32,000 nt of DNA, from positions 690,001 through 722,000 of the forward strand of contig NZ_CP195536.1 of assembly GCF_051307035.1 (NCBI RefSeq), read 5' to 3'. Shown piece after piece: positions 7,938-26,606 of the stretch (its first letter is position 1; each line of letters opens with the position of its first letter). A program made the position numbers and the translations under genes. Under the pieces are notes generated by a model, which ran no database searches, was not told the origin of the DNA, and saw only the letters and a program-made list of their open reading frames with translations. The DNA comes from Psychrobacter sp. DM4 (GTDB lineage: Bacteria > Pseudomonadota > Gammaproteobacteria > Pseudomonadales > Moraxellaceae).

Positions 7938-10052
7938 TTATTTCGCAAGTATTTGCTGTAATTGTTGGCGTAGATTTTTGGGGTCTATAGGTTTGTGCAA
8001 TACTAGTGGGTTGATTGCTTTGGTGGCCGTAAATAGCTGCGGTGACGTATCTGCGGTCAAGATAATGAATGGCGTTGCATTTGCAAGGTCACTGCTTTTT
8101 CGAATAGCAAGGATAATATCTTCACCCGTTACATTATTAGCCAAGCGAAAGTCAGTGATCACGATATCGGGTCTACGTGCAGCAAAAGCAGTTACCGCAT
8201 CCTCTAATGTCTTTACAGCAATAGGCTGACAGCCCCAAGAGCCAAGCAACAATTGCATTGATTTTAATACGGCATCATCATCATCAATGATTAACACAAC
8301 CTTTTGTTTGAGATGATCGATAGTCGTATTATTATCTAGATTCCCATCATTAATAGGCTGGCAAGTTGGGAGCACAATCGAGAACTGCGATCCGACACCA
8401 ATACTTGACTTGACGTCGAGCTCAGCTTTTAGCAGTTGCGTCATACCTTTGACGATAGCCAAACCCAGACCCAATCCTTGATCTGTCGTTTTGTTACGCT
8501 CTATCTGATAAAACGATTCAAATATCTGTTCCGTTTCATCAGCAGTCATGCCGCTTCCTGTATCCCAAACACTAACGCGACAATACGTTATCAAGATAGA
8601 TTGATTTACTATTGGAGATTTGCGTACGCCAACGACTATACCGCCCTCATTGGTATAGCGTATGGCATTACTAATGAGGTTTCTGAGGATAAGCGCGATC
8701 ATAGTAGGGTCAGTCATAACCCAAGTACCTTTGGGTGTATAGCGTAGGGATAAGCCTTTGTTATCAGCCTGAATCCCAAACTCATCGATCAGATTCTGAA
8801 TAATACTATCAAGATTGGTAGCAGTATACTGCGCGGTCATCTGACCGGACTCAATGTGCGCGTAATCTAATATCGTATTGAGCATCTCTCGACTAGAGTG
8901 GCTGGCAGATTTTGCATAGTCGACTATCTGCGATTGATGAAGATCAAGGTCAGTATCAGCCAATGCTTCGATGAATAGACTTAGCGCGTGGACAGGCTGA
9001 CGCAAATCGTGACTGGCTGATGCTAAGATTTTAGTCTTCGCTAGGCTTGCTTCTTCGACTTGGCGAGTTTTTATTTGCAGTTGAGCAATCAGACTCTCGT
9101 TTTCTATATAAACCAAAATCGCCTTCAAGGTATTAATAGAGGTATGGCGAGCAAAGAAAATATCAAAGAACAATAGCCCAATGACAGCAAAAGCTAAAAT
9201 GATGAGTCCAGTATCGGTCATATAGCTCAACAAAAAAATCCATACAAAAACACTAGGTAGAGCGTAGGCAATATAAACTCGCCAAAACGTTGCCAAACAT
9301 GAGATGCCACCACTTAACAGACCCAAATGCAGTCCTAGCAGGACTATTACTTGCGTTGAGTTTTGGATGTTAGTCGTAAAAGCTTTACCAATAGCCAGTG
9401 CCCATAGACAGGCAATGGCAAGTGCACAGACAAATAACACACTATAAGCGGCGTAGTTAGCTAGATAATGAGCATGACTCACAGAAGTCGCCGCACTTAG
9501 AACTGGCATTTGAGTATGGTCTGTTTCTATAGGCTTGTCAGGCGCATTAAGCTTATGAAATAAAGCTTTTATTTTTTCCCAGTGGCTCCAGCAAAAGGTA
9601 AGAATAATACTATGAAATACTATCCAAACAACGACTAAAGCATTTGTAGCAAGCAGCATCATTTCAGGCGTATGGAGCAGCATAACGGTAAAGACTATAA
9701 TACCCAAGATCATAGCCGACGAAAATAATATAGCAAAACTGATGAATATATTTTTTAAAAATTTAAGACTAAGACTCTCTACCCGCTTTAGTATTAGTTG
9801 AGTGATCTGCCACAATGACCCTAAAATAATCGCCTGATAGACTATCCAGAATATATTGAGTATCTTTTGATTGTTACTGAGATCGTAGGTGATGTACATC
9901 GTTGCCACAAAACAGAGTGCTGTAAAAAGCGTGCCTAACAATGCTAAGGGTAGATATCTATGAGCCAGTTTGGTCTGCTCTGCTAGTACTAGTTTGGGAT
10001 CATAGTGGTTTGGGATAAGGCTAGGTAGAGCCTCTATATCGTCTTTAAACAT
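7938..10052 (-). CDS. Hybrid sensor histidine kinase / response regulator with a multi-TM N-terminal sensor region
   Basis: About eight hydrophobic helices by eye in aa 30-300. H-box ASASHDLRQPVHAL, HATPase_c N/G boxes (NLISNAIRYT ... DTGSGM ... GLGLGLAIV) and a C-terminal receiver (VLIIDDDD ... ITDFRL ... LHKP). Confidence 0.88.
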   Translation of the reverse strand: MFKDDIEALPSLIPNHYDPKLVLAEQTKLAHRYLPLALLGTLFTALCFVATMYITYDLSNNQKILNIFWIVYQAIILGSLWQITQLILKRVESLSLKFLKNIFISFAILFSSAMILGIIVFTVMLLHTPEMMLLATNALVVVWIVFHSIILTFCWSHWEKIKALFHKLNAPDKPIETDHTQMPVLSAATSVSHAHYLANYAAYSVLFVCALAIACLWALAIGKAFTTNIQNSTQVIVLLGLHLGLLSGGISCLATFWRVYIAYALPSVFVWIFLLSYMTDTGLIILAFAVIGLLFFDIFFARHTSINTLKAILVYIENESLIAQLQIKTRQVEEASLAKTKILASASHDLRQPVHALSLFIEALADTDLDLHQSQIVDYAKSASHSSREMLNTILDYAHIESGQMTAQYTATNLDSIIQNLIDEFGIQADNKGLSLRYTPKGTWVMTDPTMIALILRNLISNAIRYTNEGGIVVGVRKSPIVNQSILITYCRVSVWDTGSGMTADETEQIFESFYQIERNKTTDQGLGLGLAIVKGMTQLLKAELDVKSSIGVGSQFSIVLPTCQPINDGNLDNNTTIDHLKQKVVLIIDDDDAVLKSMQLLLGSWGCQPIAVKTLEDAVTAFAARRPDIVITDFRLANNVTGEDIILAIRKSSDLANATPFIILTADTSPQLFTATKAINPLVLHKPIDPKNLRQQLQQILAK

Positions 10053-10122
10053 AATCTATGACCATACCTTTTCAAACTATAGAGGAGTATAAAAAATACT
10101 AATAAAGATGATAATGAGCCGA

Positions 10123-10758
10123 TTAGGTAAGATACCCTGCTTGCTGCGCTGCAATGATAATTTTGGTGCGATTATTGACTTCAAAATGCTTCATTAGTGT
10201 AACGGTATAATTGCGTACCGTATGCTCACTAAGAAATAGTTTGTCAGCGATATACTTATTACTATGACCTTCAGCCATAAGCCCTAACACCTCTAATAAT
10301 CGAATACTAAGCAGCGACTTGGCTTCTGTAACCGCTGGCAGGGGTATAGCGGTGACCTGACTACTCGTATTTGACACATGCAATTTTAGAAGCGATTGTA
10401 CCGTAGTGCAAATAACCGCAGGATCTGTATTTTTGTTCAAAAAACAACTGGCCCCTAATGCTAGTGCCTTGTTGATATCTTGATGGTTACTAAGTGCCGA
10501 TAGCAACATAATACGCGCTTGTGGCCATTTTTTTTGCAAAATACTCATGCCGTCAATGCCATTGAGTCCTGGCAGACAGATATCCAATAAGATCACATCT
10601 ACTTCTACATCTAGTTCAGTCACATCGCTAATTTTCTCAATTTCAGTAATATTTGCTTTTATTTTACTTTGTAAAATAAGACGTAACCCTGCGCGAAACA
10701 AAGCATGGTCATCTACTAGCAATAAACTTTTTTTGGCTACTTCTTCAGTCATATTCAA
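10123..10758 (-). CDS. LuxR/NarL/FixJ-family response regulator (receiver plus C-terminal HTH)
   Basis: Receiver (LLLVDDHALFRAGL ... ILLDICLPGLNG ... K) and a LuxR-type HTH (...LSIRLLEVLGLMAEGHSNKYIADKLFLSEHTVRNYTVTLMKHF...). The track start at 10758 is TTG; ATG at 10752 is an alternative. It lies upstream of, and is probably co-transcribed with, the hybrid kinase. Confidence 0.85.
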   Translation of the reverse strand: MNMTEEVAKKSLLLVDDHALFRAGLRLILQSKIKANITEIEKISDVTELDVEVDVILLDICLPGLNGIDGMSILQKKWPQARIMLLSALSNHQDINKALALGASCFLNKNTDPAVICTTVQSLLKLHVSNTSSQVTAIPLPAVTEAKSLLSIRLLEVLGLMAEGHSNKYIADKLFLSEHTVRNYTVTLMKHFEVNNRTKIIIAAQQAGYLT

Positions 10759-11117: not shown

Positions 11118-14100
11118 ATGCTAAACCATGTCTACCGCGTCATCTTCAACCGCTCAACGGGCTGCTATATGGCAGTGAGTGAAATCACTAAATCGGGCGG
11201 CAAGTCAAGTCGCTCAACTCAAGTAGGTACTGTTGGCGCTATCCCAGCAACTACTACAGACAAGTTATGGCGTCGCCAAGCGATAGCGGTGGCGATAAGT
11301 GGTGCGTTGGGTCTGACGTTAGGACTGACAGCAGTTGGTGCTCAGGCAGAGGTATGTCTTCTCAATGGTAACCCAACGGGTGGTAGCTCTGGAAATGGTG
11401 TTGAAGCTACAGCTTGTGGTTTTGGTAATATAGCCTCAAATCAGGCCAGCTCAGCAATAGGTTTTCAAAACCAAGCGTCAGGCGTTGCCAGCTCAGCGAT
11501 AGGCTCTTCAAACCAAGCGTCACAAAGATTTAGCTCGGCAATAGGCTTTCAGAACAATGCTTCAGCTTTTGCAGCTTCTGCAATTGGTCGTACTAATAAT
11601 GCCTCAGGTCAAGATAGCTCGGCGATAGGTAGTAGCAACACTGCTCAAGGTACAAATAGCTCAGCGATAGGTTTTAACAACACCGCTTTCGCTAATAACA
11701 GCATAGCTATTGGCTCAAACGCGACGGCTAATATTGCTAATAGTGTGGCTTTAGGAGAGCGCAGCGTTACTACGGTTAATGCAGGCGTGCAAGGATTTGG
11801 TGCTAATGGTAGAACCAATGCCACATGGCAATCTACCCTTGCAGCGGTTAGTGTCGGCAACACTAATAATAACCTAACTCGTCAAATTACAGGTGTGGCT
11901 GCAGGGACAGCGGATACCGATGCCGTCAATATTGCTCAGCTAAGACAAGTGGCTAACTCTGTGCAAAATGGTGCTGATGGTGCTGATGGTGCTGATGGTG
12001 CTCAAGGGATTCAGGGCGAGCGAGGCATTCAAGGTGAGCGAGGCATTCAAGGTGAGCGAGGCATTCAAGGTGAGCGAGGCATTCAAGGTGAGCGAGGCAT
12101 TCAAGGTGAGCGAGGGGTTACTGGTGCTCGGGGTGAGAGAGGTTTTCAAGGGGCAACTGGTGCTACTGGTGAACAAGGGGTAGCAGGTCAAGACGGTGTT
12201 AATGGTGCAATGGGTGATCAGGGTATCCAAGGCGAGCGAGGCGAACGAGGCCTTCAAGGACTACAGGGTGATGCTGGAGTAAATGGTACGAATGGCCAAG
12301 ATGGTGCAACGGGTGCCCAAGGTATTCAAGGTGAAACTGGCGCAACAGGTGTTCAAGGCGAACAGGGCTTGCAGGGCGTAGCAGGGGAAAATGGCGCAAT
12401 GGGCGCTCAAGGAGATCAGGGCATCCAAGGTGTAGCAGGTCAGGATGGCACTAATGGGATCAATGGTCAAGACGGTGCAACAGGCGCTCAAGGCGAACGA
12501 GGTATTCAGGGTGAAAGAGGCCTTCAAGGCGAACAAGGTGTTGCTGGAACTAACGGTATTGATGGTACAAATGGTCAGGACGGTGCAACGGGTGCCCAAG
12601 GTATTCAAGGTGAAACTGGCGCAACGGGCGCTCAAGGAAATCAGGGCATCCAAGGTATAGCAGGTACTGACGGAACTAACGGTCAGGACGGTACTAATGG
12701 CTTAAATGGTCAAGATGGTGCTCAAGGTGTTCAGGGCGAACAAGGTCTGCAAGGGGTTCAGGGTGAAACTGGTGCTCAAGGTCTTCAAGGTGAACAAGGC
12801 ATAGCAGGTCAGGATGGTACTGATGGCAATGATGGCGCTGATGGCTTAAACGGTCAAGACGGCATTAACGGTGTCGATGGCGCTCAAGGCGAGCAAGGTA
12901 TCCAAGGCGAACAAGGTCTTCAAGGTGAGCAGGGGATAGCAGGCACTGATGGTGTCGATGGTATTGACGGCTTAAATGGTCAAGACGGCATTAACGGTGT
13001 CGATGGTGCTCAGGGTGAGCAAGGTATCCAAGGCGAGCAGGGCATTCAAGGCGAGCAAGGTATCCAAGGCGAGCAAGGTATCCAAGGTGAACAAGGTTTG
13101 CAAGGCGAGCAGGGCATTCAAGGCGAGCAGGGCATTCAAGGCGAGCAGGGCATTCAAGGTGAACAAGGTTTGCAAGGCGTAGCAGGTCAAGACGGTGAAA
13201 AAGGTGACAAGGGTGATTCAGGAATTAGCGAAGAAGCTAGAGCTGAACTAGTAGAGCAGATTGAAGATAGTAAAGTTCAATTTGTAAGTATCAATAGCTT
13301 TGATGACGAAAACGAAGGCAACTCTAATGGTAACGGTGCGACAGCTGATGGTGCCATAGCCATTGGTGTCAATACCAAAGCAACGGGTACAAATAGCACT
13401 GCTGTAGGAACGGATAGCATAGTCACGGGTGATCAATCTACCAGCGTCGGCAAAGGCAACATCGTCTCAGGCGATCGCTCAGGCGCTTTCGGTGATCCTA
13501 ACATAGTTGGCGGTAGTGCTAACTACGCCGTCGGTAATGACAACACTATAGGCAACACCACGAGCAATTCAGTGGTCTTAGGTAGCAATGCCACCGTTGG
13601 GGCCACTTCTGCAACGACCGATACTAATGGCAATCCAGTCTTTGCTAATGCAACCGATGCCTCAAACTCAGTAGCTATTGGTGAGTCAGTCAATGTTCAG
13701 GCAACGGATGCCGTGGCTATTGGCTCTAACAGCAGCGCTACTAATAACAACTCGGTAGCCCTAGGAGCGAACTCTCAGACTAGTGCGGATAATACGGTAT
13801 CAGTAGGTAATGCAAACAACCAACGACGCATTACTAATGTTGCAGCTGGAGTTGATGCTAATGATGCGGTCAATGTTGGTCAGAGTCAAGCTGATGATAG
13901 TCAAACTTTAGATCTCGCTAACGACTATACCAATCAGCGTTTTGCAGCATTCGATCAGAACTTAGGCTTATTCAGAGGTGATATAGATTCACGCTTTAAA
14001 GAGCAGGATCAACGCATTGACAAAGTCGGAGCGATGAGTGCTGCTATCCAAAACATGGGTACCAGCGTCAGTGGCATGAATCAGCGCAATCGCGTAGGTC

Positions 14101-14243
14101 TAGGTATGGGTTTTCAAGGAAGCGAGCAGGCGGTAGCTATTGGTTATCAACGTGTCGTTTCTGATAATGCGTCAGTGACATTTAGTGGTGCTTTTAGTGA
14201 TAATGAGTCCTCTGCAGGTGTAGGCGTAGGTTTTGGTTGGTAA
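11118..14243 (+). CDS. Trimeric autotransporter adhesin 1 (ESPR signal, YadA-like head, neck, collagen-like stalk, second head, neck, YadA-type beta-barrel anchor)
   Basis: N-terminus MLNHVYRVIFNRSTGCYMAVSEITKSG resembles the extended signal peptide region of autotransporters, and signal cleavage is likely after AVGAQA. 14-residue head repeats (SSAIGxxNxASGxx). Neck motif RQITGVAAGTADTDAVNIAQL. 139 Gly-X-Y triplets. A second Hep/Hag-type head. RRITNVAAGVDANDAVNV. The C-terminal four-strand anchor ends ...GVGVGFGW. Confidence 0.9.
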   Translation: MLNHVYRVIFNRSTGCYMAVSEITKSGGKSSRSTQVGTVGAIPATTTDKLWRRQAIAVAISGALGLTLGLTAVGAQAEVCLLNGNPTGGSSGNGVEATACGFGNIASNQASSAIGFQNQASGVASSAIGSSNQASQRFSSAIGFQNNASAFAASAIGRTNNASGQDSSAIGSSNTAQGTNSSAIGFNNTAFANNSIAIGSNATANIANSVALGERSVTTVNAGVQGFGANGRTNATWQSTLAAVSVGNTNNNLTRQITGVAAGTADTDAVNIAQLRQVANSVQNGADGADGADGAQGIQGERGIQGERGIQGERGIQGERGIQGERGIQGERGVTGARGERGFQGATGATGEQGVAGQDGVNGAMGDQGIQGERGERGLQGLQGDAGVNGTNGQDGATGAQGIQGETGATGVQGEQGLQGVAGENGAMGAQGDQGIQGVAGQDGTNGINGQDGATGAQGERGIQGERGLQGEQGVAGTNGIDGTNGQDGATGAQGIQGETGATGAQGNQGIQGIAGTDGTNGQDGTNGLNGQDGAQGVQGEQGLQGVQGETGAQGLQGEQGIAGQDGTDGNDGADGLNGQDGINGVDGAQGEQGIQGEQGLQGEQGIAGTDGVDGIDGLNGQDGINGVDGAQGEQGIQGEQGIQGEQGIQGEQGIQGEQGLQGEQGIQGEQGIQGEQGIQGEQGLQGVAGQDGEKGDKGDSGISEEARAELVEQIEDSKVQFVSINSFDDENEGNSNGNGATADGAIAIGVNTKATGTNSTAVGTDSIVTGDQSTSVGKGNIVSGDRSGAFGDPNIVGGSANYAVGNDNTIGNTTSNSVVLGSNATVGATSATTDTNGNPVFANATDASNSVAIGESVNVQATDAVAIGSNSSATNNNSVALGANSQTSADNTVSVGNANNQRRITNVAAGVDANDAVNVGQSQADDSQTLDLANDYTNQRFAAFDQNLGLFRGDIDSRFKEQDQRIDKVGAMSAAIQNMGTSVSGMNQRNRVGLGMGFQGSEQAVAIGYQRVVSDNASVTFSGAFSDNESSAGVGVGFGW
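12015..12115 (+). repeat. Near-perfect 18-bp tandem array (GAGCGAGGCATTCAAGGT, about 5.5 copies) encoding (GERGIQ)n
   Basis: Read directly from the DNA at 12015-12115. The copies are identical at the nucleotide level, not only at the protein level. Confidence 0.9.
13014..13175 (+). repeat. Nine 18-bp units encoding GEQG(I/L)Q, with synonymous-codon variants
   Basis: GGTGAGCAAGGTATCCAA, GGCGAGCAGGGCATTCAA and GGTGAACAAGGTTTGCAA alternate across 13014-13175. Confidence 0.85.
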
Positions 14244-14288
14244 TAAATAACAGCAAGTGCACTTATACTCTCTAAATAAAGCGCTTAG

Positions 14289-14325
14289 GAGTTAGTTAGA
14301 TGGATATTAAGCATCTAACTAACTC
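14289..14325 (+). other. Perfect 14-bp inverted repeat (hairpin) in the spacer between the two adhesin genes
   Basis: GAGTTAGTTAGATG (14289-14302), a 9-nt loop GATATTAAG, then CATCTAACTAACTC (14312-14325). No T-run follows, so it is not a canonical intrinsic terminator. Confidence 0.6.
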
Positions 14326-14392
14326 AAGAAACATGCTACACAGACGGCTATAACTTAACGACTTATATTTATATAAACATTAGGACTCTCTT

Positions 14393-17300
14393 ATGCTAAA
14401 CCATGTCTATCGCGTCATCTTTAATCGTTCAACAGGCTGCTATGTCGCAGTGAGTGAAATCGCCAAATCTGGTGGCAAATCTAGCAAGTCTACGACGGGT
14501 ACCGTACCAGCCAGTACGACAGGCACAACGCTACGTCATCGTACCATCGCAGTGGCTATAGGCAGTATCTTGGGACTGACAATGATGAGCGCTCAGGCAG
14601 AGGTCTGTATACTTGATCCTGGTAACTCGACTAGCAGCAGCACCGCTACTGGTAATTCTGCTTTTGCTTGTGGTCTTGGCAACGAAGCCTCAGGTACCTT
14701 TAGCTCGGCGCTAGGTATTGGTAACACAGCCTCAAATTTTTCCAGCTCAGCGGTGGGTCGTGCAAACGAAGCCTCAGGTGACTTTAGCTCAGCGATCGGT
14801 AATTTTAATCAAGCTTCAGGTGGCTTTAGCTCAGCGATGGGTTATGAAAACACAGCTTCAGCTCGTAATAGCTCAGCGATGGGTCGTAGCAACATAGCCT
14901 CAGGTCTTTATAGCTCAGCAGTAGGTAGTTTCAGTGAAGCCTCAGAAGCAGGCGCTACTGCCGTTGGTAGTGGTAGTGCAAGTTCCTTTAAACAAGTTCC
15001 AGTAGCAGGCGCCGTCGTACAAGCCGACTTTACCGCTGCGACCACGCCCATACAGACAGATAGTCAGAATCGTCGTTTTAGAGATGACGGTAATGGTGGT
15101 CAGATCTTTGAGTTCGCAGATGCAGACTATGAAGCATTAGGCATAGGTGCAACCGCGAGTGGTATTCGCGCAACAGCGGTTGGCAATACCTCAGTCGCAA
15201 GCGCTCGCGATAGCATCGCGATGGGTACAGGATCAACAGCTAATATTGATAATAGTATTGCTTTAGGTAGCCAAAGCGTCACCACAGTCGATGCAGGCGT
15301 ACAAGGCTTTGGTGCGGACGCTAGAACCACACCAGTATGGCAATCAACCTTAGCGGCAGTGAGTGTAGGAGATACCAGTGATGCTGATCCTGCTAATTGG
15401 CAAACCCGTCAGATCACAGGTGTCGCCGCAGGGACGACTGATACTGATGCGGTCAATGTGGCTCAGCTAAAAGATCAAAAGATCCGTTATGTCAGTATCA
15501 ATTCAGATGCATCTGATGCAGCATCTAATCGCGATAATGATGGCGCGACGGGTGCCGGATCATTGGCTATTGGTATAAATAGTCAGACTTCAGGTAATGC
15601 TGGCTCAGCGATAGGCATAAGTAACAGAGCATCAAGTCAGTTCGGTGTAGCAGTAGGTTTCGGCAATCGAGTCAGTAGTACCGATAATAGTGGTAACTCA
15701 ATCGAAGAGGCCTCAGCGGTAGGTAACCAAAACAGAGCATTAGGTAATCAAGCGTCTGCTTTTGGTCATACCAACACAGCGGTAGGTGACGATAGCTCAG
15801 CCTTTGGTCAAGGTAATATATCAGGAGGTAATGACAGCTCAGCATTAGGTCGCAATAACATTGCCCGCGGCGTTGATAGCTCAGCAGTAGGTTCGCAGAA
15901 CTTTACGACCCTCGAAGCTGAAGACAGCTCAGCCCTCGGTAAAAGGAACCGAACAACAGCACTAGCGAGTTCAGCGATCGGCTACCGCAACGAAGCCTCA
16001 GGTATATTTAGTAGCGTAATGGGCAGTAGCAGTGTTGCCTCAGCTACGGGTGCGACAGCAGTTGGTAGTGGTAGAGAAGATGGCCTAGTAGCTATCGATG
16101 GCGCGATAGTTCAAGCAGAGTTTGCAGCAGCTACAACAGATATAGAAGTTGATGACGAAGGTCGACGCTTCAAATTAGACACTAATAATGATCCCATATT
16201 TGAGTTCGCAGCAGCAGATTATGAAGACTTAGGCATAGGCGCAACCGCGAGTGGTATTCGCGCAACAGCGGTTGGCAATACCTCAGTCGCCAGTGCTCGC
16301 GATAGCATAGCCATGGGTACAGGTTCTACTGCTGACATTCGCAACAGCATCGCTCTAGGCAGTCAAAGCGTCACCACAGTCGATGCAGGCGCACAAGGCT
16401 TTAGCGCTAATGGTAGAACCGATGCCACATGGCAATCGACCTTAGCGGCAGTGAGTGTTGGTAATATTAGTGATGCTGATCCTGCCAATTGGCAAACCCG
16501 TCAAATCACAGGCGTCGCCGCAGGGACGACTGATACTGATGCGGTCAATGTGGCACAGCTACAAAGAGTAGAGACGAACAGCTTCTCTCAAGCACAGAAC
16601 CTAGCCTCTGCCTTTGGTGGTAATGCCGCGTTCAACATGAACGGCACTTTCCAAGCACCGACCTATCGTATTAATAATACTAATTATAACGACGTAGGTT
16701 CAGCATTCACAGCCGTTGATGGAAGACTGACTGACTTGCAAGGACAAATTAATAACATTGAACTTACACCAGGCCCACAGGGTGAACAAGGCATTCAGGG
16801 TGAACAAGGCGAACAAGGAATCCAAGGTATCCAAGGTGTAGCAGGTCAAGATGGCGCTAATGGTGCAATGGGTGTTCAAGGTGAACAGGGCATTCAGGGT
16901 GAACAAGGCGAACAAGGTCTTCAAGGCGAGCAAGGTATAGCAGGCCAAGACGGCACTAACGGTACTAACGGCCTAAATGGTCAAGACGGTGCAACAGGTG
17001 CTCAAGGCGAACAAGGGATTCAAGGTGAGCAAGGCGAACGAGGCCTTCAAGGACTACAGGGCGATGCTGGAGTAAACGGTGCCGATGGTGCAATGGGTGT
17101 TCAAGGTGAACAGGGCATTCAGGGTGAACAAGGCGAACAAGGAATCCAAGGTGAACAAGGTGTAGCAGGTCAAGACGGTGTTAACGGTGCTGATGGCGCT
17201 CAAGGCATTCAAGGCATTCAAGGTGAACAAGGTCTTCAAGGCGAGCAAGGTATAGCAGGCCAAGACGGCACTAACGGTACTAACGGCCTAAATGGTCAAG

Positions 17301-18493
17301 ACGGTGCAACAGGTGCTCAAGGCGAACGAGGCCTTCAAGGACTACAGGGCGATGCTGGAGTAAACGGTGCCGATGGTGCAATGGGTGTTCAAGGCGAACA
17401 AGGAATCCAAGGTGAACAAGGTGTAGCAGGTCAAGACGGCACTAACGGTACTAACGGCCTAAATGGTCAAGACGGTGCAACAGGTGCTCAAGGTATTCAG
17501 GGCGAACAGGGCATTCAAGGTGAACAAGGCGAATCAGGTATTAGCGAAGAGGCCAGAGTTGAACTAGAAGCGCAGATAGAAGAGAGTGAGACTCGCTTCT
17601 TTAGCGTCAATACAAATGAAGAGAAAACCCAAGGCAATTTTAACAACAATGGTGCCACAGCTACAGGCGCAATCGCTATTGGTGTCAATACCAAAGCAAC
17701 GGGTACAAATAGTACTGCTATAGGAACGGACAGCATAGTCACTGGCGATCAATCTACCAGTGTCGGTAAAGGCAACATCGTCTCAGGTAACCGTTCAGGC
17801 GCTTTCGGTGATCCTAACATCGTCGGTGGTAATGCTAACTACGCGGTAGGTAATGACAACGTCATAGGCAACACCACCAGCAACTCAGTCGTCTTAGGTA
17901 GCAATGCAACCGTTGGTGCTACAGCCGCTACGGCAGATGCGCAAGGCAACCCAACCTTTACTAATGCAACCGATGCCTCAAACTCTGTTGCTATCGGTGA
18001 GTCAGTAAACGTTCAAGCAACCAATGCCGTGGCTATCGGCTCTAATAGTAGTGTAACTAATAACAACTCGGTAGCACTAGGAGCGAACTCACAGACCAGT
18101 GCGGATAATACGGTGTCTGTGGGTAGTACCAACAATCAACGCCGTATTACTAATGTCGCATCTGGCATTAACCCAAATGATGCGGTGAATGTCGCACAAC
18201 TTAACCAGTCTCGTGCAGATGCTTTTGGTTATACCGATAGCGCGGTTGATAGACTAGAAGACGAAACCTACTCAGCAGTAGCGGGCGCATTAGCCTTTGG
18301 CGCACTACGCTATCCTAACGTACCCGGTAAAGTCAGTGTTGGTCTCGGGGGCGGCACATGGGAAGGTGAGACAGGGTATGCCGTAGGTATTGGCTATACG
18401 ACACCAAATGGACAGATTTCGTTTAATAGCGCGTTTGGTGGTAGCGGTAGTCAAAATGGAGGTAACGTAGGTGTGAGTTATACCTTTGACTAA
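14393..18493 (+). CDS. Trimeric autotransporter adhesin 2 (ESPR, duplicated head-neck module, FGG-like motif, collagen-like stalk, proximal head, neck, YadA-type anchor)
   Basis: The ESPR MLNHVYRVIFNRSTGCYVAVSEIAKSG is almost identical to adhesin 1. Two head-neck modules each end in RQITGVAAGTTDTDAVNVAQL. Then ...SAFGGNAAFNMNGTFQAPTYRINNTNYNDVGSAF..., 85 Gly-X-Y triplets, a proximal head about 90 percent identical to adhesin 1, RRITNVASGINPNDAVNVAQL, and a C-terminal beta anchor ...GGNVGVSYTFD. Confidence 0.9.
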   Translation: MLNHVYRVIFNRSTGCYVAVSEIAKSGGKSSKSTTGTVPASTTGTTLRHRTIAVAIGSILGLTMMSAQAEVCILDPGNSTSSSTATGNSAFACGLGNEASGTFSSALGIGNTASNFSSSAVGRANEASGDFSSAIGNFNQASGGFSSAMGYENTASARNSSAMGRSNIASGLYSSAVGSFSEASEAGATAVGSGSASSFKQVPVAGAVVQADFTAATTPIQTDSQNRRFRDDGNGGQIFEFADADYEALGIGATASGIRATAVGNTSVASARDSIAMGTGSTANIDNSIALGSQSVTTVDAGVQGFGADARTTPVWQSTLAAVSVGDTSDADPANWQTRQITGVAAGTTDTDAVNVAQLKDQKIRYVSINSDASDAASNRDNDGATGAGSLAIGINSQTSGNAGSAIGISNRASSQFGVAVGFGNRVSSTDNSGNSIEEASAVGNQNRALGNQASAFGHTNTAVGDDSSAFGQGNISGGNDSSALGRNNIARGVDSSAVGSQNFTTLEAEDSSALGKRNRTTALASSAIGYRNEASGIFSSVMGSSSVASATGATAVGSGREDGLVAIDGAIVQAEFAAATTDIEVDDEGRRFKLDTNNDPIFEFAAADYEDLGIGATASGIRATAVGNTSVASARDSIAMGTGSTADIRNSIALGSQSVTTVDAGAQGFSANGRTDATWQSTLAAVSVGNISDADPANWQTRQITGVAAGTTDTDAVNVAQLQRVETNSFSQAQNLASAFGGNAAFNMNGTFQAPTYRINNTNYNDVGSAFTAVDGRLTDLQGQINNIELTPGPQGEQGIQGEQGEQGIQGIQGVAGQDGANGAMGVQGEQGIQGEQGEQGLQGEQGIAGQDGTNGTNGLNGQDGATGAQGEQGIQGEQGERGLQGLQGDAGVNGADGAMGVQGEQGIQGEQGEQGIQGEQGVAGQDGVNGADGAQGIQGIQGEQGLQGEQGIAGQDGTNGTNGLNGQDGATGAQGERGLQGLQGDAGVNGADGAMGVQGEQGIQGEQGVAGQDGTNGTNGLNGQDGATGAQGIQGEQGIQGEQGESGISEEARVELEAQIEESETRFFSVNTNEEKTQGNFNNNGATATGAIAIGVNTKATGTNSTAIGTDSIVTGDQSTSVGKGNIVSGNRSGAFGDPNIVGGNANYAVGNDNVIGNTTSNSVVLGSNATVGATAATADAQGNPTFTNATDASNSVAIGESVNVQATNAVAIGSNSSVTNNNSVALGANSQTSADNTVSVGSTNNQRRITNVASGINPNDAVNVAQLNQSRADAFGYTDSAVDRLEDETYSAVAGALAFGALRYPNVPGKVSVGLGGGTWEGETGYAVGIGYTTPNGQISFNSAFGGSGSQNGGNVGVSYTFD
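15122..16562 (+). repeat. In-frame 1092-bp (364-codon) duplication of the head-neck module in adhesin 2; best conserved cores are 15122-15470 and 16214-16562
   Basis: AACCGCGAGTGGTATTCGCGCAACAGCGGTTGGCAATACCTCAGTCGC occurs at 15151 and 16243, an offset of 1092. The protein segments ADYE(A/D)LGIGATASGIRATAVGNTSVASARDSIAMGTGST...TRQITGVAAGTTDTDAVNVAQL are near-identical. Confidence 0.85.
16772..17539 (+). repeat. Collagen-like Gly-X-Y tract of adhesin 2 (85 consecutive triplets, a single proline in the first triplet GPQ)
   Basis: Hand-parsed from GPQGEQGIQGEQ... to ...GIQGEQGESG. The frame was checked at 16772 and 17537. Confidence 0.9.
16910..17394 (+). repeat. Long perfect in-frame direct repeats inside the collagen tract: 103 bp at 16910-17012 = 17225-17327, and 74 bp at 17033-17106 = 17321-17394
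   Basis: Compared base by base and found identical. The offsets are 315 bp and 288 bp, both multiples of 9. The second copy lacks 27 bp (GEQGIQGEQ) that the first copy carries between two GGCGAAC repeats. Confidence 0.9.
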
Positions 18494-18522
18494 ATAGTAG
18501 TTTAGTTCGTGATACGAAACGC

Positions 18523-18556
18523 AAGTCTACTATCATTTGGTGGTAGGCTTGTTTTA
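18523..18556 (+). terminator. Probable rho-independent terminator of the adhesin genes
   Basis: AAGTCTACTA (18523-18532), an 8-nt loop, TGGTAGGCTT (18541-18550; 10 bp with two G-U pairs), followed by GTTTTAGTT. Confidence 0.55.
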
Positions 18557-18613: not shown

Positions 18614-18641
18614 TTGACCCCTCCGTTAAACTACGTATAAT
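18614..18641 (+). promoter_or_regulatory. rrn promoter P1 (sigma70-type)
   Basis: TTGACC (18614-18619), a 16-nt spacer, TATAAT (18636-18641). An AT-rich UP-like tract lies upstream and a GC-rich discriminator (GCCACCC) downstream. Confidence 0.6.
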
Positions 18642-18770: not shown

Positions 18771-18798
18771 TTGACACCACAATTTAACCGTCTATAAT
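18771..18798 (+). promoter_or_regulatory. rrn promoter P2 (sigma70-type)
   Basis: TTGACA (18771-18776), a 16-nt spacer, TATAAT (18793-18798). An A/T-rich upstream tract (AAACTAAATTAAATAA) and a discriminator ACGCACC. Confidence 0.65.
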
Positions 18799-19246: not shown

Positions 19247-20786
<1,540 letters not shown>

Positions 20787-20874
20787 TAGACAGCATTCAT
20801 CTTGGCAAGAATTCACAACAAGTTGTTCTTTAGTTTTAAGCTAGTTTATTAGCTTTGCCTTTACAGGCAGACAT

Positions 20875-20951
20875 AGGCCTGTAGCTCAGCTGGTTAGAGC
20901 ACCGTGTTGATAACGCGGGGGTCGGCAGTTCAAGTCTGCCCAGGCCTACCA
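20875..20951 (+). tRNA. tRNA-Ile (anticodon GAT)
   Basis: AGGCCTGTAGCTCAGCTGGTTAGAGCACCGTGTTGATAACGCGGGGGTCGGCAGTTCAAGTCTGCCCAGGCCTACCA. Cloverleaf with a 7-bp acceptor, anticodon loop TTGATAA, and an encoded CCA. Confidence 0.95.
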
Positions 20952-21080
20952 TTATTAAGCGGTAGTTAGAACAGTCGTTACATTGCATGAGCTAAAAGTA
21001 ATTAAAGCTTTTTGAAAATCCTATTTAAAGGATTTTCCTTGCGAAGCTAAAATTGCAGTGCAATTTTTACACGCTTCTCA

Positions 21081-21156
21081 GGGGCCATAGCTCAGTTGGT
21101 AGAGCGCCTGCCTTGCACGCAGGAGGTCAACGGTTCGACTCCGTTTGGCTCCACCA
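21081..21156 (+). tRNA. tRNA-Ala (anticodon TGC)
   Basis: GGGGCCATAGCTCAGTTGGTAGAGCGCCTGCCTTGCACGCAGGAGGTCAACGGTTCGACTCCGTTTGGCTCCACCA. The G3-U70 identity pair is present. Confidence 0.95.
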
Positions 21157-21471
21157 TTATAAACAGCGCGATTAGATAGAATATTATAGAGAGCATAAAC
21201 AGAATTAAGTAATCGTTGATGATTATTTACTTCTGTTTTATACAGAACCTGGAATCTGACGAAGATACAGGAACTATTTAAAAACATAGATATGAGTCTG
21301 GGTTAGGACTAACGTGTTCACGCGTTAATCTTAACCTTAATAGCTCACCTCTTAACGACATCAGTTGTTATCCCAGGGGTGAGTTATTAAAAAGTAATAA
21401 GAGAACTGAATCAAGCGTAAACATAGGTGATATCGTTATAATTGTGAGACAAAGACCCTTTGGGGTTGTAT

Positions 21472-24331
<2,860 letters not shown>

Positions 24332-24449
24332 ACAACACCCAAGTGGTTTGTATCAAGCAACTATTTCGATATCACCTATATCCTTGATTCAGGAATAGTG
24401 ATACTTAGTCAAAATAAGTAAAACAACACAGACTCATATCTAACCCCTT

Positions 24450-24566
24450 TGCTGACGACAATAGCACGATGGCACCACCTGATCCCTTCCCGAACTCAGA
24501 AGTGAAACATCGTAGCGCCAATGGTAGTGTGGCTCCGGCCATGTGAGAGTAGGTCATCGTCAGCGC
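24450..24566 (+). rRNA. rrf: 5S ribosomal RNA
   Basis: TGCTGACGACAATAGCACGATGGCACCACCTGATCCCTTCCCGAACTCAGAAGTGAAAC...GAGAGTAGGTCATCGTCAGCGC. Helix I closes 24451-24458 with 24557-24564. Confidence 0.93.
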
Positions 24567-24686: not shown

Positions 24687-25019
24687 TTATACCTGTGATT
24701 TCCATTCCTGATTAGACTCAAATATGTCTTGGTATACTGCTTCTTTGATAGAGGCAGAATTAAAACGACGTCTATCTTCACTAAGTCGTAACACACGAGG
24801 TAGACGACTAATTCCTAAATCTCCGTCTGCTAGCGCATAATGTCTATATTTATTGTTGATGATCTCGTTACATTCAAACTCTGGATACACCATACCTTTA
24901 TTCTGGTTTTTTGCCATGCGAACGATAAACATAAATAGATCTTCATTAACCGATTGTTCTGTTTCAATGATATCCTCTAACGAGTAGTTAGGTGTTTTAC
25001 CTACCTTAAGTTTTGCCAA
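24687..25019 (-). CDS. Hypothetical small protein (81-110 aa), distal gene of the orphan cassette
   Basis: ORF with a basic segment (RLPRVLRLSEDRRRF) and no family I can recognise. The track start at 25019 is TTG, lies only 3 nt after a GGAAG, and overlaps the upstream gene by 19 nt. ATG at 24932 (GAAGA 8 nt upstream) is an alternative start. Confidence 0.55.
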   Translation of the reverse strand: MAKLKVGKTPNYSLEDIIETEQSVNEDLFMFIVRMAKNQNKGMVYPEFECNEIINNKYRHYALADGDLGISRLPRVLRLSEDRRRFNSASIKEAVYQDIFESNQEWKSQV

Positions 25020-26428
25020 AAACTTCCATTCTCTTGAACCTCATTATAATTCGCTATACTGTCTTTAAAAGACTGAAGCTCTCCTAAAGATGTTTCGGTT
25101 TCTTCTAGTTTTTCTTTAACCGTAGTTAGTGGTATTTTGATATGATCAGAATACTCATCGATTCTTTGCTGCTCAGCATTTAATACCAAACGTAATTTGT
25201 CTAAGAGTTTACGCATAGCTATAAACTTAATAATCATGACTTCACCGCTATCAGAATACATCACTAGCGGTTGCAATCTAAAGTCCTGAATATTATCACT
25301 CATTTGTTTTGTTAATTGATCTAAGTGATAGAATAAATAATTTCTATCGTTTACATCATTTTCTGTGAGCTTAATTACATTAGGTAATTTTTGCAGTATC
25401 AATAGAGATAATTGTTTTTCGTACTTAATAAGACGATTTTTGATCACGACTTCAGGTTGGCTACCGTCTTGTTCTAGAGGCTCTTTGAGTAGTGGTCTTA
25501 AATAACAGTTATACAAACGCTTAATCTCATTGACGAACTTTAAAATAGTATCAGATACGCCTCTATCCAAAGTGTACAGCCTAGACATACAATAAGTTGC
25601 ATGTTCCATATATTTAGGATCGCTTATATGTTGTTTATCCAGTACGACGTGAGTCAAAAAAACAAACTGATGATGACCGCCTCCACTGCTATCCTCGTGC
25701 AAAAACCTTCTAAAAGAGTAGGGGTTTTTATCAACTTGGTCAGCAATACCAATTAAAAACCAATAGTGTTGCCCCTCAACGATAAAGAATTTTCTATCCA
25801 AAGCTTCTTTTTTTATAAAAGTAGGAAAATGAGTAAACTCTTGAAATTCTAAATCTGATGAGTCCCAACTTCTAAAATCTCTACCTTGAACCTGCTGTTT
25901 GATGAAGACCTCTTTGAAGTAAGACTTTACGATATCACTATTTAGCTGACGCAGACCTGAATGTATGGTTAACTCTATAGTGTCAATCCACGCTGCCAGA
26001 TCATACAAAAATGCTATGCGTATTCGGTGGCGGTTTTTTTGATCGAGCAAAGAACCCTGAACGTCCAAGTTATCTAAGTGACCTAATAAGGCTTCTACTT
26101 TATCAGCTAATGCTATAGCGTTATGGACCTTGTTATCAGAGTCAGTCACTTTGAGCATATGTGAAGCTATAGAAATAAGGTCCTTATTATTAGTTTGAAT
26201 ACTAGCAAGAGTAAAACTCAGAGTTTCAGGGCTCTGGTAAACTAGTTTTTTATCTGCGCTAATGGTTATACCGCGCGGCTTCAAAATGTTCTTGTAGACG
26301 CTGTACTGGCTTTTTTTGTGTAATTTGGGCAAGATTTTTTCGATAGAGTCATACCAATCAGAGCTAAGGGCTGGATCTATAGATTTAAGTTTATAGAGTT
26401 GATACTCTGATAGATCATGAATGTTCAT
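25001..26428 (-). CDS. Hypothetical protein (about 475 aa), proximal gene of the orphan cassette
   Basis: Long uninterrupted ORF in an AT-rich segment. I prefer ATG at 26428 (AAAGGA about 10 nt upstream) to the track TTG at 26482, which has no Shine-Dalgarno. No Walker A, no TM helices, no signal peptide. The C-terminal 70 aa are charged and heptad-like (LDKLRLVLNAEQQRIDEY...KEKLEETETSLGELQSF). It contains an RNYLFYH (Rx5H) motif. Confidence 0.7.
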   Translation of the reverse strand: MNIHDLSEYQLYKLKSIDPALSSDWYDSIEKILPKLHKKSQYSVYKNILKPRGITISADKKLVYQSPETLSFTLASIQTNNKDLISIASHMLKVTDSDNKVHNAIALADKVEALLGHLDNLDVQGSLLDQKNRHRIRIAFLYDLAAWIDTIELTIHSGLRQLNSDIVKSYFKEVFIKQQVQGRDFRSWDSSDLEFQEFTHFPTFIKKEALDRKFFIVEGQHYWFLIGIADQVDKNPYSFRRFLHEDSSGGGHHQFVFLTHVVLDKQHISDPKYMEHATYCMSRLYTLDRGVSDTILKFVNEIKRLYNCYLRPLLKEPLEQDGSQPEVVIKNRLIKYEKQLSLLILQKLPNVIKLTENDVNDRNYLFYHLDQLTKQMSDNIQDFRLQPLVMYSDSGEVMIIKFIAMRKLLDKLRLVLNAEQQRIDEYSDHIKIPLTTVKEKLEETETSLGELQSFKDSIANYNEVQENGSFWQNLR

Positions 26429-26606
26429 GAGGGTAAAGTCCTTTACAAATTTGGTCAAGTCTATGACATACTCAGTGAGCAATTGTAATGCACAAATGTC
26501 ACAGTATAAAGTCCCAATGACTAATTATTAGAATATAAGAGCTTTACTAAAACAAATCCTAAATTGTCAAAACAGGTTAGATAATTCATATAAAAGGCAG
26601 AACGAT

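What the first reader, a model, noticed from the sequence alone, without database searches (positions are those of the whole stretch)
11970..13223. Adhesin 1: 139 consecutive Gly-X-Y triplets with zero proline
I parsed every triplet from GAD GAD GAD GAQ GIQ GER ... to GEK GDK GDS. There is no interruption and no proline. The Y position is dominated by Q, D, N, T and R, and the X position by E, I, A, Q, L, V and T.

Known bacterial collagens lack hydroxyproline but usually keep a substantial proline content. A fully proline-free tract rich in Gln, Glu, Asp and Asn would be expected to be a marginally stable triple helix unless it is clamped at both ends. Here it is clamped by TAA modules, in what looks like a cold-adapted genus. 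It could be a natural model for proline-independent, end-clamped triple-helix stability.
Basis: partly seen in the sequence, partly recalled or inferred. Interest (0 to 1): 0.8.

Follow-up and report, generated by a model that had tools for sequence, protein, structure and literature searches.

The report
Proline-free collagen stalk in Psychrobacter adhesin
A surface adhesin of a cold-loving Psychrobacter bacterium carries an unbroken 140-triplet collagen-type repeat with no proline; the repeat is real and conserved in relatives, but collagen-bearing adhesins of this class and proline-free bacterial collagens are both already known.

Summary
ORF 11118-14243 (+) is an intact trimeric autotransporter adhesin (TAA). 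Residues 285-704 (nt 11970-13229) are 140 uninterrupted Gly-X-Y triplets (139 up to GDS, plus GIS), with no Pro and no Gly at X or Y. The genus is Psychrobacter.

All 11 related Psychrobacter loci keep an uninterrupted tract at the same position, between trimeric modules. Tract length ranges from 35 to 111 triplets and proline from 0.01 to 0.29 per triplet. The periodicity is therefore conserved, and the proline-free, Gln-rich type is a lineage variant shared with the window's second adhesin, P. submarinus and strain DM8.

X/Y usage follows triple-helix rules: Glu, Ile, Leu and Val occur only at X, and Arg and Lys only at Y.

Collagen-bearing TAAs are published (Glaesserella parasuis VtaA). 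Proline-free collagen-like regions are also published (Burkholderia Bucl; Bucl8 (GAS)19 shows triple-helix CD). Pneumococcal PclA-type proteins have proline-free runs of 103-121 triplets.

A rough host-guest score puts the tract at 32, no lower than its proline-bearing orthologues (27-31) but well below VtaA (39).

The most likely role is a thin triple-helical stalk of about 120 nm with variable length. It is a new member of a known kind and of moderate interest.

The parts
11118..14243 (+). Adhesin 1: an intact trimeric autotransporter adhesin gene (1041 aa)
   Evidence: ORF list. Pfam hits to ESPR, YadA_head, YadA_stalk and Collagen. YadA_anchor was found when the C-terminus was scanned alone.
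11124..11255 (+). ESPR extended signal peptide (aa 3-46)
   Evidence: PF13018, E = 9e-16.
11385..11879 (+). N-terminal YadA-like head (approx. aa 90-254; SAIG-type repeats)
   Evidence: PF05658 repeats. PDB sequence matches to the YadA head 1p9h, CbpF 9u93 and AtaA 3wp8. The boundaries are approximate.
11880..11969 (+). Neck and 12-residue coiled-coil start (RQITGVAAGTADTDAVNIAQLRQVANSVQN). It runs directly into the Gly-X-Y tract and acts as the N-terminal clamp.
   Evidence: PF05662 covers aa 256-295. Motif position. The FGG domain present in adhesin 2 and the orthologues is absent here.
11970..13229 (+). Collagen-like tract: 140 uninterrupted Gly-X-Y triplets, 0 Pro, 32 triplet types
   Evidence: PF01391 scores 234 bits.
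11968..12002 (+). Perfect 9-nt repeat, 3.9 copies, encoding (GAD)3 at the start of the tract
   Evidence: TRF reports 100% matches.
12005..12115 (+). 18-nt repeat, 6.2 copies, encoding (GIQGER)6. Five copies are identical in DNA, which indicates a recent slippage expansion.
13010..13186 (+). (GIQGEQ)n block. The protein repeat is nearly perfect but the DNA copies are only 82-83% alike, differing at synonymous sites.
13230..13295 (+). C-terminal clamp: a short amphipathic helix (EEARAELVEQIEDSKVQ) leading into the FVSIN entry of the second head. The junction GDKGDSGISEEAxxELExxIED..F(F/V)S(V/I)N is conserved in all orthologues.
   Evidence: That this is a helix or coiled coil is inferred from the sequence pattern only.
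13296..13820 (+). Second YadA-like head
   Evidence: PF05658. PDB matches to BpaC 7o23 and SadA 2yo0.
13821..14057 (+). Second neck (QRRITNVAAGVDANDAVNV) and the coiled-coil stalk leading to the anchor
   Evidence: PF05662 second stretch. Motif positions.
14082..14240 (+). YadA-type beta-barrel membrane anchor, which imposes trimerisation
   Evidence: PF03895, 42.4 bits, E = 7e-11, on the last 100 aa.
14393..18493 (+). Adhesin 2: the paralogous TAA (1366 aa)
   Evidence: Pfam hits to ESPR, heads, stalks, Collagen and anchor.
16580..16771 (+). Adhesin 2: FGG-type insert plus a canonical heptad coiled coil (…AVDGRLTDLQGQINNIELTP) immediately before its collagen tract
   Evidence: Sequence matches to SadA 2yo2/2yny and AtaA 3wpa/3wpr. 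Hydrophobic spacing is 4-3-4-3.
16772..17545 (+). Adhesin 2 collagen-like tract: 86 triplets of the same Gln-rich type, with one Pro in the first triplet (GPQ)
11940..12653 (-). Two antisense ORFs (11940-12257 and 12261-12653) inside the tract. They are most likely by-products of the repetitive GGN-rich coding strand and not genes.
   Evidence: ORF list. They overlap a coding sequence with strong Pfam support. No further test was made.

Best explanation
The tract is the collagen-like, triple-helical stalk segment of a Psychrobacter trimeric autotransporter adhesin.

Three identical chains are held together and in parallel by the C-terminal beta-barrel anchor, two necks and the short helices that abut the tract on both sides. 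The 140 Gly-X-Y triplets can therefore wind into one triple helix. At 0.286 nm per residue (textbook geometry) it would be about 120 nm long. It would project the N-terminal YadA-like head far from the second head and the cell surface, using about half as many residues per nanometre as a coiled-coil stalk.

Stability without proline would come from three sources (inferred). First, favourable non-imino residues: Glu at X, and Gln and Arg at Y. Second, the end clamps, which remove the entropy cost of chain association and set the register. Third, sheer length. Blocks rich in Gly-X-Asp/Asn, predicted to be weak, alternate with strong GIQ/GEQ/GER blocks and may act as flexible spots.

Passengers of this class are thought to emerge and fold from the C-terminus (general knowledge). 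The C-terminal head and helix would then nucleate the triple helix, which would zip towards the N-terminus. With no prolines, zipping would need no cis-trans isomerisation (inferred).

Tract length changes by slippage and recombination in 9-nt units, so stalk length varies between strains and paralogues.

Shown here: the sequence anatomy, the domain identities, conservation of the periodicity and the junctions, and the variation in length and proline content. Inferred: triple-helix formation, its stability, the order of folding and the spacer function.
For: - All TAA modules are present and the gene is intact.
- There are 140 triplets without interruption, no Gly at X or Y, and 32 triplet types.
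- X/Y asymmetry is strong (chi-square 173, P = 5e-30). Glu 33:0, Ile 29:0, Leu 12:0 and Val 14:0 occur at X only. Arg 0:12 and Lys 0:2 occur at Y only. Gln is 11:63. Acidic residues at X and basic residues at Y is the pattern reported for animal and phage collagens (PMC3368898).
- All 11 Psychrobacter loci, and the metagenome relatives P0001, P0002 and P0121, have an uninterrupted tract at the same place with conserved junction sequences. Length and composition differ.
- Identical protein triplets are encoded by 4-7 synonymous DNA versions, so the protein periodicity is under selection.
- All internal repeat spacings are multiples of 9 nt.
- L002 and L003 differ by whole triplets: one extra GIQ and three extra GDQ.
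- The N-flank is homologous to solved trimeric FGG/coiled-coil fragments of SadA and AtaA.
- Precedents exist. The VtaA TAAs carry collagen repeats that contribute to collagen binding (PMC6755704). The proline-free (GAS)19 of trimeric Bucl8 gives triple-helix CD (PMC7682875).
- The host-guest score of 32 is comparable to the 33 C quoted for GAS (PMC7682875).
Against: - There are no structural or biophysical data for this protein or any Psychrobacter relative, and no trimer modelling tool was available here.
- The host-guest values were recalled from memory (Persikov et al. 2000) and combined additively. The same arithmetic gives 29.4 for GAS, against 33.0 quoted in PMC7682875, so absolute numbers are unreliable.
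- About 31% of triplets score below 30, and rolling six-triplet minima reach about 23. Parts of the tract may be unfolded at moderate temperature.
- In adhesin 1 the N-terminal clamp is only a neck plus about 12 helical residues.
- Several orthologous tracts come from draft assemblies that break or carry Ns in the repeat (L004, L005, L009), so some lengths are uncertain.
Confidence: 0.75

Rival explanations
1. The tract is only partly or transiently triple-helical. The Gln/Glu/Arg-rich blocks fold, while the Asp/Asn-rich blocks stay open. The segment would then act as a flexible, jointed tether, or as an unfolded entropic spacer above about 20-25 C, and not as a rigid rod.
For: The predicted stability alternates along the tract, with rolling six-triplet scores from 39 down to 23, and 31% of triplets score below 30. 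The Bucl8 (GAS)19 CD peak was shallow and was read as a mixture of helix and coil (PMC7682875).
Against: Both ends are held in register by trimeric modules, and a long tract is cooperative. The Asp/Asn-rich motif (GxNGQDG…) is the most conserved part across the genus, and orthologues consisting mostly of it are kept uninterrupted. That argues for a structural constraint there as well.
Confidence: 0.17
2. The Gly-X-Y tract adopts a non-collagen fold built from polyproline-II or polyglycine-II strands, such as the bundles of snow-flea antifreeze protein. It could then serve as an ice- or surface-binding face in a cold-adapted bacterium.
For: The genus is cold-adapted. The surface would be rich in Thr, Asn, Asp and Gln. 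That such bundles exist in Gly-rich proteins is general knowledge and was not tested here.
Against: Those folds need Gly at more than one position per triplet, and here 0 of 280 X/Y positions are Gly. The chains are parallel, and trimeric modules flank the tract on both sides. X/Y preferences match collagen rules. The same module in other genera is Pro-rich classical GPx.
Confidence: 0.03
3. The repeat is a neutral, slippage-driven low-complexity expansion, or an assembly artefact, with no structural role.
For: Perfect DNA repeats exist: (GAD)3 and five identical 18-nt units. Short-read assemblies of relatives break in this region (L004/L005/L009).
Against: Most of the tract is not a perfect DNA repeat. 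Identical triplets use many synonymous versions, and there are 32 triplet types. The module and its junctions are conserved in 11 species, including complete or megabase-scale assemblies (L003, L010, L011). Not one Gly is lost in about 800 triplets across relatives.
Confidence: 0.03

Closest known systems
VtaA virulence-associated trimeric autotransporters of Glaesserella (Haemophilus) parasuis
   Same: Both are type Vc adhesins with an ESPR signal, YadA-like head repeats, necks and a long central collagen-repeat region (PMC6755704). P0095 has 154 uninterrupted triplets. Deleting the VtaA2 collagen region reduced binding to collagen.
   Different: VtaA tracts are classical Pro-rich GPx/GxP, with 0.60 Pro per triplet and a host-guest score of 39.0, against 0 Pro and 32.0 here. 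No similarity beyond generic TAA and collagen modules was seen. The host is a pig pathogen, not an environmental psychrotroph.
Burkholderia collagen-like proteins, especially Bucl8
   Same: Both have proline-free Gly-X-Y tracts on a Gram-negative surface, attached to an obligate outer-membrane trimer. Repeat number varies between strains. Bucl8 (GAS)19 gave triple-helix CD at 25 C (PMC4565658, PMC7682875).
   Different: Bucl tracts are short (4-63 triplets), built from one or two triplet types, and anchored at one end only to an efflux-channel protein. The tract here has 140 triplets of 32 types, sits inside a TAA and is held at both ends.
Pneumococcal collagen-like protein PclA and related database proteins
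   Same: Both contain long runs free of proline: P0010 and P0045 have 103-121 triplets, and P0003 has 162.
   Different: PclA is a Gram-positive, LPXTG-anchored protein. Its runs are charge-rich (GAKGEKGDRGERGLT, with many KGE/KGD/RGE pairs) and not Gln/Ile-rich. Whole PclA proteins still contain some Pro elsewhere.
Prophage collagen-like tail-fibre proteins of E. coli O157 (EPclA)
   Same: A collagen domain is flanked by a trimeric coiled coil on one side and a trimerising domain on the other. It was shown to be a trimeric rod that melts at 42 C independently of the coiled coil (PMC3368898).
   Different: EPclA is a phage fibre, not an autotransporter. [quoted passage not shown]
Coiled-coil stalk TAAs with FGG inserts (SadA, AtaA)
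   Same: The neck, the FGG insert and the coiled coil before the tract in adhesin 2 and the orthologues match solved SadA and AtaA fragments.
   Different: In SadA and AtaA the stalk continues as a coiled coil. Here it switches to Gly-X-Y.

Membership tests
Trimeric autotransporter adhesin (type Vc secretion) | N-terminal (extended) signal peptide | tested here: met
   PF13018 ESPR, aa 3-46, E = 9e-16.
Trimeric autotransporter adhesin (type Vc secretion) | C-terminal YadA-type beta-barrel anchor (four strands per chain) | tested here: met
   PF03895 scores 42.4 bits against a cut-off of 22.7 on the last 100 aa. It was missed in the whole-protein scan.
Trimeric autotransporter adhesin (type Vc secretion) | Passenger built from head, neck and stalk modules | tested here: met
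   PF05658 has 6 stretches and PF05662 has 2. PDB sequence matches to YadA, SadA, AtaA, BpaC and UspA1.
Trimeric autotransporter adhesin (type Vc secretion) | Forms a surface-exposed homotrimer | not testable with these tools
   Needs expression and biochemistry.
Bacterial collagen-like protein (triple-helix repeat, PF01391) | Uninterrupted (Gly-X-Y)n | tested here: met
   140 triplets with no interruption and no Gly at X or Y. PF01391 scores 234 bits.
Bacterial collagen-like protein (triple-helix repeat, PF01391) | Adjacent trimerisation or registration module | tested here: met
   A neck lies directly before the tract. A conserved helix plus head lies directly after it. The whole protein is anchored as a TAA. 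This rests on homology, not on an assay.
Bacterial collagen-like protein (triple-helix repeat, PF01391) | Position-specific residue preferences of triple helices (acidic at X, basic at Y) | tested here: met
   Glu 33:0, Arg 0:12, Lys 0:2 (X:Y), P = 5e-30. The rule is stated in PMC3368898.
Bacterial collagen-like protein (triple-helix repeat, PF01391) | Actual triple-helix formation (CD maximum near 220 nm, cooperative melting, protease resistance) | not testable with these tools
   No trimer modelling or experiment was available. The host-guest estimate is only indicative.
VtaA-type collagen-bearing TAA | TAA with a central collagen-repeat region | tested here: met
   (P0095); PMC6755704.
VtaA-type collagen-bearing TAA | Orthology to VtaA passengers (specific similarity outside generic modules) | tested here: inconclusive
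   P0095 matched mainly through the collagen region (40% identity over 39% of the query). No dedicated comparison of the non-collagen parts was made.
Polyglycine-II / PPII bundle proteins (snow-flea AFP type) | Gly at more than one position of most triplets, allowing tight antiparallel packing | tested here: not met
   0 Gly at 280 X/Y positions. The defining feature itself is from general knowledge.

The most novel reading that the evidence does not exclude
Loss of proline in this lineage may be adaptive, not merely tolerated. A proline-free triple helix needs no prolyl cis-trans isomerisation, which is the slow and strongly temperature-dependent step of collagen zipping. It could therefore fold quickly from the C-terminal clamp towards the N-terminus on the outside of the cell, where no isomerase or ATP is available, and in the cold. 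That would speed or drive export of a 120-nm passenger. The genus would then offer a natural series, from 0.29 to 0 Pro per triplet, in one conserved scaffold for testing imino-acid-independent triple-helix folding.
Probability: 0.12. Interest if true: 0.6.

Novelty: new member of a known kind. Interest (0 to 1): 0.35.

Why it matters
If the tract folds as proposed, it would be one of the longest natural triple helices entirely free of imino acids and made of heterogeneous sequence. It is held in register at both ends, and close relatives carry graded proline content in the same scaffold. That makes it a convenient natural system for asking how far Gln, Glu and Arg chemistry and end-clamping can replace proline, and a possible source of designs for recombinant collagen materials.

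For microbiology, it shows that collagen stalks in trimeric autotransporters are not confined to the pig pathogen Glaesserella. They are a conserved, length-variable module in environmental Psychrobacter, and related junctions occur in Xanthomonadales-type adhesins.

It does not reveal a new kind of system.

Tried and rejected
- An exact-sequence look-up of adhesin 1 found nothing on record, so the source strain was not identified. The closest locus is P. submarinus KMM 225.
- PDB sequence searches with the tract returned only animal collagens and a Pro-containing model sequence (8zxl, GAPGAPGSQGAPGLQ repeats). No solved proline-free relative was found.
- I tried to obtain the host-guest tables and the composition and Tm data for Gln-rich bacterial collagens. 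Persikov 2005, Xu 2010 (PMC2818787) and Yu 2014 (PMC4096566) are not held. Two literature searches gave nothing usable. The table values are therefore from memory.
- The second homologue search, using the C-terminal 339 aa, returned almost only proteins shorter than 600 aa. It added few full-length orthologues, but it did reveal Pro-rich GXY inserts in other TAAs.
- Structure prediction was not run. The tool folds single chains only, which says nothing about a triple helix.
- Cold adaptation as the cause of proline loss was rejected, because other Psychrobacter species keep proline.
- The promoter and terminator scan gave only a terminator-like site after adhesin 2 (18521-18552) and rRNA-type promoters further downstream. 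Nothing specific to the tract was found.
Full report
**1. The observation**

The ORF at 11118-14243 (+) encodes 1041 aa. Residues 285-704 (nt 11970-13229) are 140 consecutive Gly-X-Y triplets. There is no proline and no glycine at any X or Y position.

- X: E33, I29, A24, V14, L12, Q11, T9.
- Y: Q63, D24, N15, R12, T11, A9.

Pfam Collagen scores 234 bits. In-phase glycine over 140 triplets cannot arise by chance (about 10^-128 at the flanks' Gly frequency).

The zero-proline count needs one qualification. It is improbable against the other proteins of the window (3.5% Pro, P about 4e-5). The adhesin's own non-collagen parts are already very proline-poor (4 of 621 residues), and at that rate zero in 280 positions has P about 0.16.

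**2. What the gene is**

The protein has every module of a trimeric autotransporter adhesin (TAA):
- ESPR signal peptide (E = 9e-16).
- YadA-like head repeats.
- Two neck/stalk matches.
- A YadA-type membrane anchor, found when the C-terminal 100 aa are scanned alone (42.4 bits against a cut-off of 22.7).

The non-collagen parts match solved fragments of YadA, SadA, AtaA, BpaC and UspA1.

The order of modules in adhesin 1 is:

| Module | Residues |
|---|---|
| Signal peptide | 3-46 |
| Head 1 | about 90-254 |
| Neck and short coiled-coil start | 255-284 |
| Collagen tract | 285-704 |
| Short helix (first residue overlaps the final GIS triplet) | 703-726 |
| Head 2 | about 727-901 |
| Neck | 902-924 |
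| Coiled coil | 927-980 |
| Anchor | about 989-1041 |

A second TAA follows 150 nt downstream (14393-18493, 1366 aa). It has an 86-triplet tract of the same Gln-rich type, with a single Pro in its first triplet.

The wider context is as follows:
- Upstream and divergent lie a LuxR-type response regulator and a hybrid histidine kinase.
- Downstream is a complete rRNA operon.
- The two antisense ORFs inside the tract are most likely by-products of the repetitive coding strand.

**3. Relatives**

A scan of one genome per species with the C-terminal 339 aa returned 11 Psychrobacter loci, so the genus is Psychrobacter. Every one has an uninterrupted Gly-X-Y tract immediately upstream of the same junction, G(D/E)KGDSGISEEAxxELExxIED..FFSVN.

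Tract features vary widely:
- Length runs from 35 to 111 triplets. Two contigs start inside the tract, and one has Ns in it.
- Proline runs from 1 to 14 residues, or 0.01-0.29 per triplet.
- The metagenome relatives P0001, P0002 and P0121 behave the same way.

On the N-terminal side, adhesin 2 and all the orthologues share a domain homologous to the FGG inserts of SadA and AtaA. It is followed by a canonical heptad coiled coil (…AVDGRLTDLQGQINNIELTP) that ends two residues before the first Gly. Adhesin 1 has lost this. Its neck helix (AVNIAQLRQVANSVQN) runs straight into (GAD)3, which is a perfect 9-nt repeat. That is why adhesin 1 has zero prolines and not one: in the Pro-poor relatives the single remaining Pro sits in the conserved first triplet (GPQ/GPK), just after the TP that ends the preceding coiled coil.

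Two compositional types exist in the genus:
- Most species use GPQ/GPA triplets mixed with GxD/GxN/GKD.
- The window's two adhesins, P. submarinus KMM 225 and strain DM8 use GEQ/GIQ/GLQ/GER/GVA in place of the GPx triplets, and keep the GQDGxNG motif.

The proline-free state is a lineage variant inside a conserved module.

**4. Evidence that the periodicity is constrained at the protein level**

- X and Y are used very differently (chi-square 173, P = 5e-30). Glu, Ile, Leu, Val and Phe occur only at X. Arg, Lys, Met and Ser occur only at Y. Gln, Asp and Asn occur mostly at Y. Acidic residues at X and basic residues at Y is the pattern described for animal and phage collagens (PMC3368898).
- Identical triplets are written in several synonymous ways. 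GIQ occurs 20 times in 6 DNA versions and GEQ 17 times in 7. The (GIQGEQ)n block is nearly perfect in protein but only 82-83% identical in DNA.
- There are also young repeats: five identical 18-nt units encoding GIQGER, and the (GAD)3 unit.
- All internal repeat spacings are multiples of 9 nt.
- P. submarinus and strain DM8 differ by whole triplets, one extra GIQ and three extra GDQ.

Length therefore evolves by triplet-unit slippage and recombination without ever breaking the Gly register.

**5. Locus dynamics**

The P. submarinus locus is syntenic: kinase, regulator, one TAA, rRNA operon. The regulator protein is 99.5% identical and the kinase protein 97% identical to the window's, while flanking genes are only 80-87% identical in DNA.

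Its single TAA matches the first 180 nt of adhesin 1 (97.8%) and the middle of adhesin 2 (93.7%). The locus is a mosaic. The one-gene and two-gene states differ by recombination between paralogues.

Short stretches of the two window tracts reach 86-96% DNA identity. That is consistent with sequence exchange between them.

**6. Stability estimate**

I used Gly-X-Hyp and Gly-Pro-Y melting values recalled from Persikov et al. 2000. The papers holding the tables were not available, so the numbers are indicative only.

| Tract | Mean score |
|---|---|
| Adhesin 1 | 32.0 |
| Adhesin 2 | 31.7 |
| P. submarinus / DM8 | 33.3 |
| Pro-bearing Psychrobacter tracts | 26.8-31.3 |
| PclA-type runs | 35 |
| VtaA (P0095) | 39.0 |

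Replacing GPx by GEQ/GIQ/GER does not make the tract the weak member of its family. Gln and Arg at Y are good, while the Asp and Asn that dominate Y in the relatives are poor.

Within adhesin 1, strong blocks (rolling six-triplet means of 35-39) alternate with weak Asp/Asn-rich blocks (23-28).

As a check on the method, the same arithmetic gives 29.4 for GAS, whereas PMC7682875 quotes 33.0. The absolute scale is therefore uncertain by several degrees.

**7. Comparison with what is known**

- Collagen repeats inside TAAs are published for the VtaA family of Glaesserella parasuis. Removing the collagen region of VtaA2 reduced binding to collagen (PMC6755704). VtaA tracts are Pro-rich, at 0.60 Pro per triplet.
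- Proline-free collagen-like regions are also published. Burkholderia Bucl proteins 'lack Pro residues' (PMC4565658).
- The (GAS)19 region of the trimeric outer-membrane protein Bucl8 gave a triple-helix CD signal at 25 C that was lost at 50 C (PMC7682875).
- Among the database hits, pneumococcal PclA-type proteins have proline-free runs of 103-121 triplets, and a metagenome protein (P0003) has 162.
- Reviews give about 19% Pro at X for bacterial collagens overall (PMC8968730).
- A collagen domain flanked by a trimeric coiled coil and a trimerising domain has been characterised in E. coli prophage EPclA (PMC3368898).
- Nothing was found in the literature on Psychrobacter TAAs with collagen.
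- Short Pro-rich Gly-X-Y inserts after the same FGG/coiled-coil junction also occur in Xanthomonadales-type TAAs (P0156, P0182, P0185). The module is therefore more widespread than the literature suggests.

**8. Most likely mechanism**

The tract most likely forms a parallel homotrimeric collagen triple helix used as stalk. At 0.286 nm per residue (textbook value), 420 residues give about 120 nm, and the 86 triplets of adhesin 2 give about 74 nm. A coiled coil of the same length in residues would reach about half as far.

The anchor, the necks and the flanking helices fix chain stoichiometry and register. Because the passenger is thought to emerge C-terminus first, the conserved C-terminal junction is the probable nucleation site.

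Stability would rest on Glu at X, Gln and Arg at Y, tract length, end clamping and the low growth temperature. Length variation would tune how far head 1 is presented.

These steps are inferred. Only the anatomy and its conservation are shown.

The rivals considered are:
- A partly open, jointed tether (0.17).
- A non-collagen PPII-bundle fold (0.03; contradicted by the absence of Gly at X and Y).
- Neutral slippage or an assembly artefact (0.03; contradicted by conservation and synonymous diversity).

**9. Verdict**

The claim of special novelty is weakened by published precedents for both components, and by the finding that the tract is not predicted to be weaker than its proline-bearing relatives.

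It is a new member of a known kind: a Psychrobacter collagen-stalk TAA at the proline-free extreme of a natural series. It is useful as an experimental system. Interest is 0.35.

Noticed in passing
window 7938-10758 (-): A hybrid histidine kinase (HisKA, HATPase_c and receiver domains) and a LuxR/GerE-type response regulator lie divergently upstream of the adhesin pair. They are syntenic in P. submarinus, where the proteins are 97% and 99.5% identical, although neighbouring genes are only 80-87% identical in DNA. They are candidate regulators of the adhesins and a sign of recombination at this locus.
   Followed up: partly
window 11118-18493 versus L002 7376-10954: The window has two tandem TAA genes, while P. 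submarinus KMM 225 has one. That single gene matches the first 180 nt of adhesin 1 (97.8%) and the middle of adhesin 2 (93.7%). This looks like a deletion or duplication by recombination between paralogues.
   Followed up: partly
window 19247-24565: A complete rRNA operon (16S, tRNA-Ile GAT, tRNA-Ala TGC, 23S, 5S) lies directly downstream of adhesin 2. Strong consensus promoters are at 18614-18641 and 18771-18798. Several orthologous contigs end here, which limits what draft genomes show of the locus.
   Followed up: yes
window 13230-13295, and the same junction in L001-L011: In the helix after the collagen tract, hydrophobic residues fall at every fourth position (I-A-L-I). This differs from the 4-3-4-3 heptad pattern seen in the coiled coil before the tract in adhesin 2 and the orthologues. 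It may mark a special collagen-to-helix transition.
   Followed up: no
proteins P0156, P0182, P0183, P0185: TAAs of other, apparently Xanthomonadales-type origin carry short Pro-rich Gly-X-Y runs (6-34 triplets). In P0156, P0182 and P0185 the run directly follows the same '…vgaAfsAvD..lt.l' FGG/coiled-coil junction. Collagen inserts in TAA stalks therefore seem more widespread than the VtaA literature implies.
   Followed up: partly
protein P0003: A 1270-aa metagenome protein has 162 consecutive proline-free triplets (GNQ/GIQ/GVQ/GAQ/GAT), and 180 in total. It has no other Pfam domain and its type is unknown.
   Followed up: no
window 25001-26482 (-): A 492-aa ORF has no significant Pfam family. 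The only hit is a weak sub-threshold coiled-coil-type match.
   Followed up: no
window 14393-18493: Adhesin 2 contains an internal duplication of a whole head-neck unit. The segment '…GATAVGSGS…QTRQITGVAAGTTDTDAVNVAQL' occurs twice. The anchors of the two adhesins are of different types: …GVGVGFGW in adhesin 1 and …GVSYTFD in adhesin 2.
   Followed up: no
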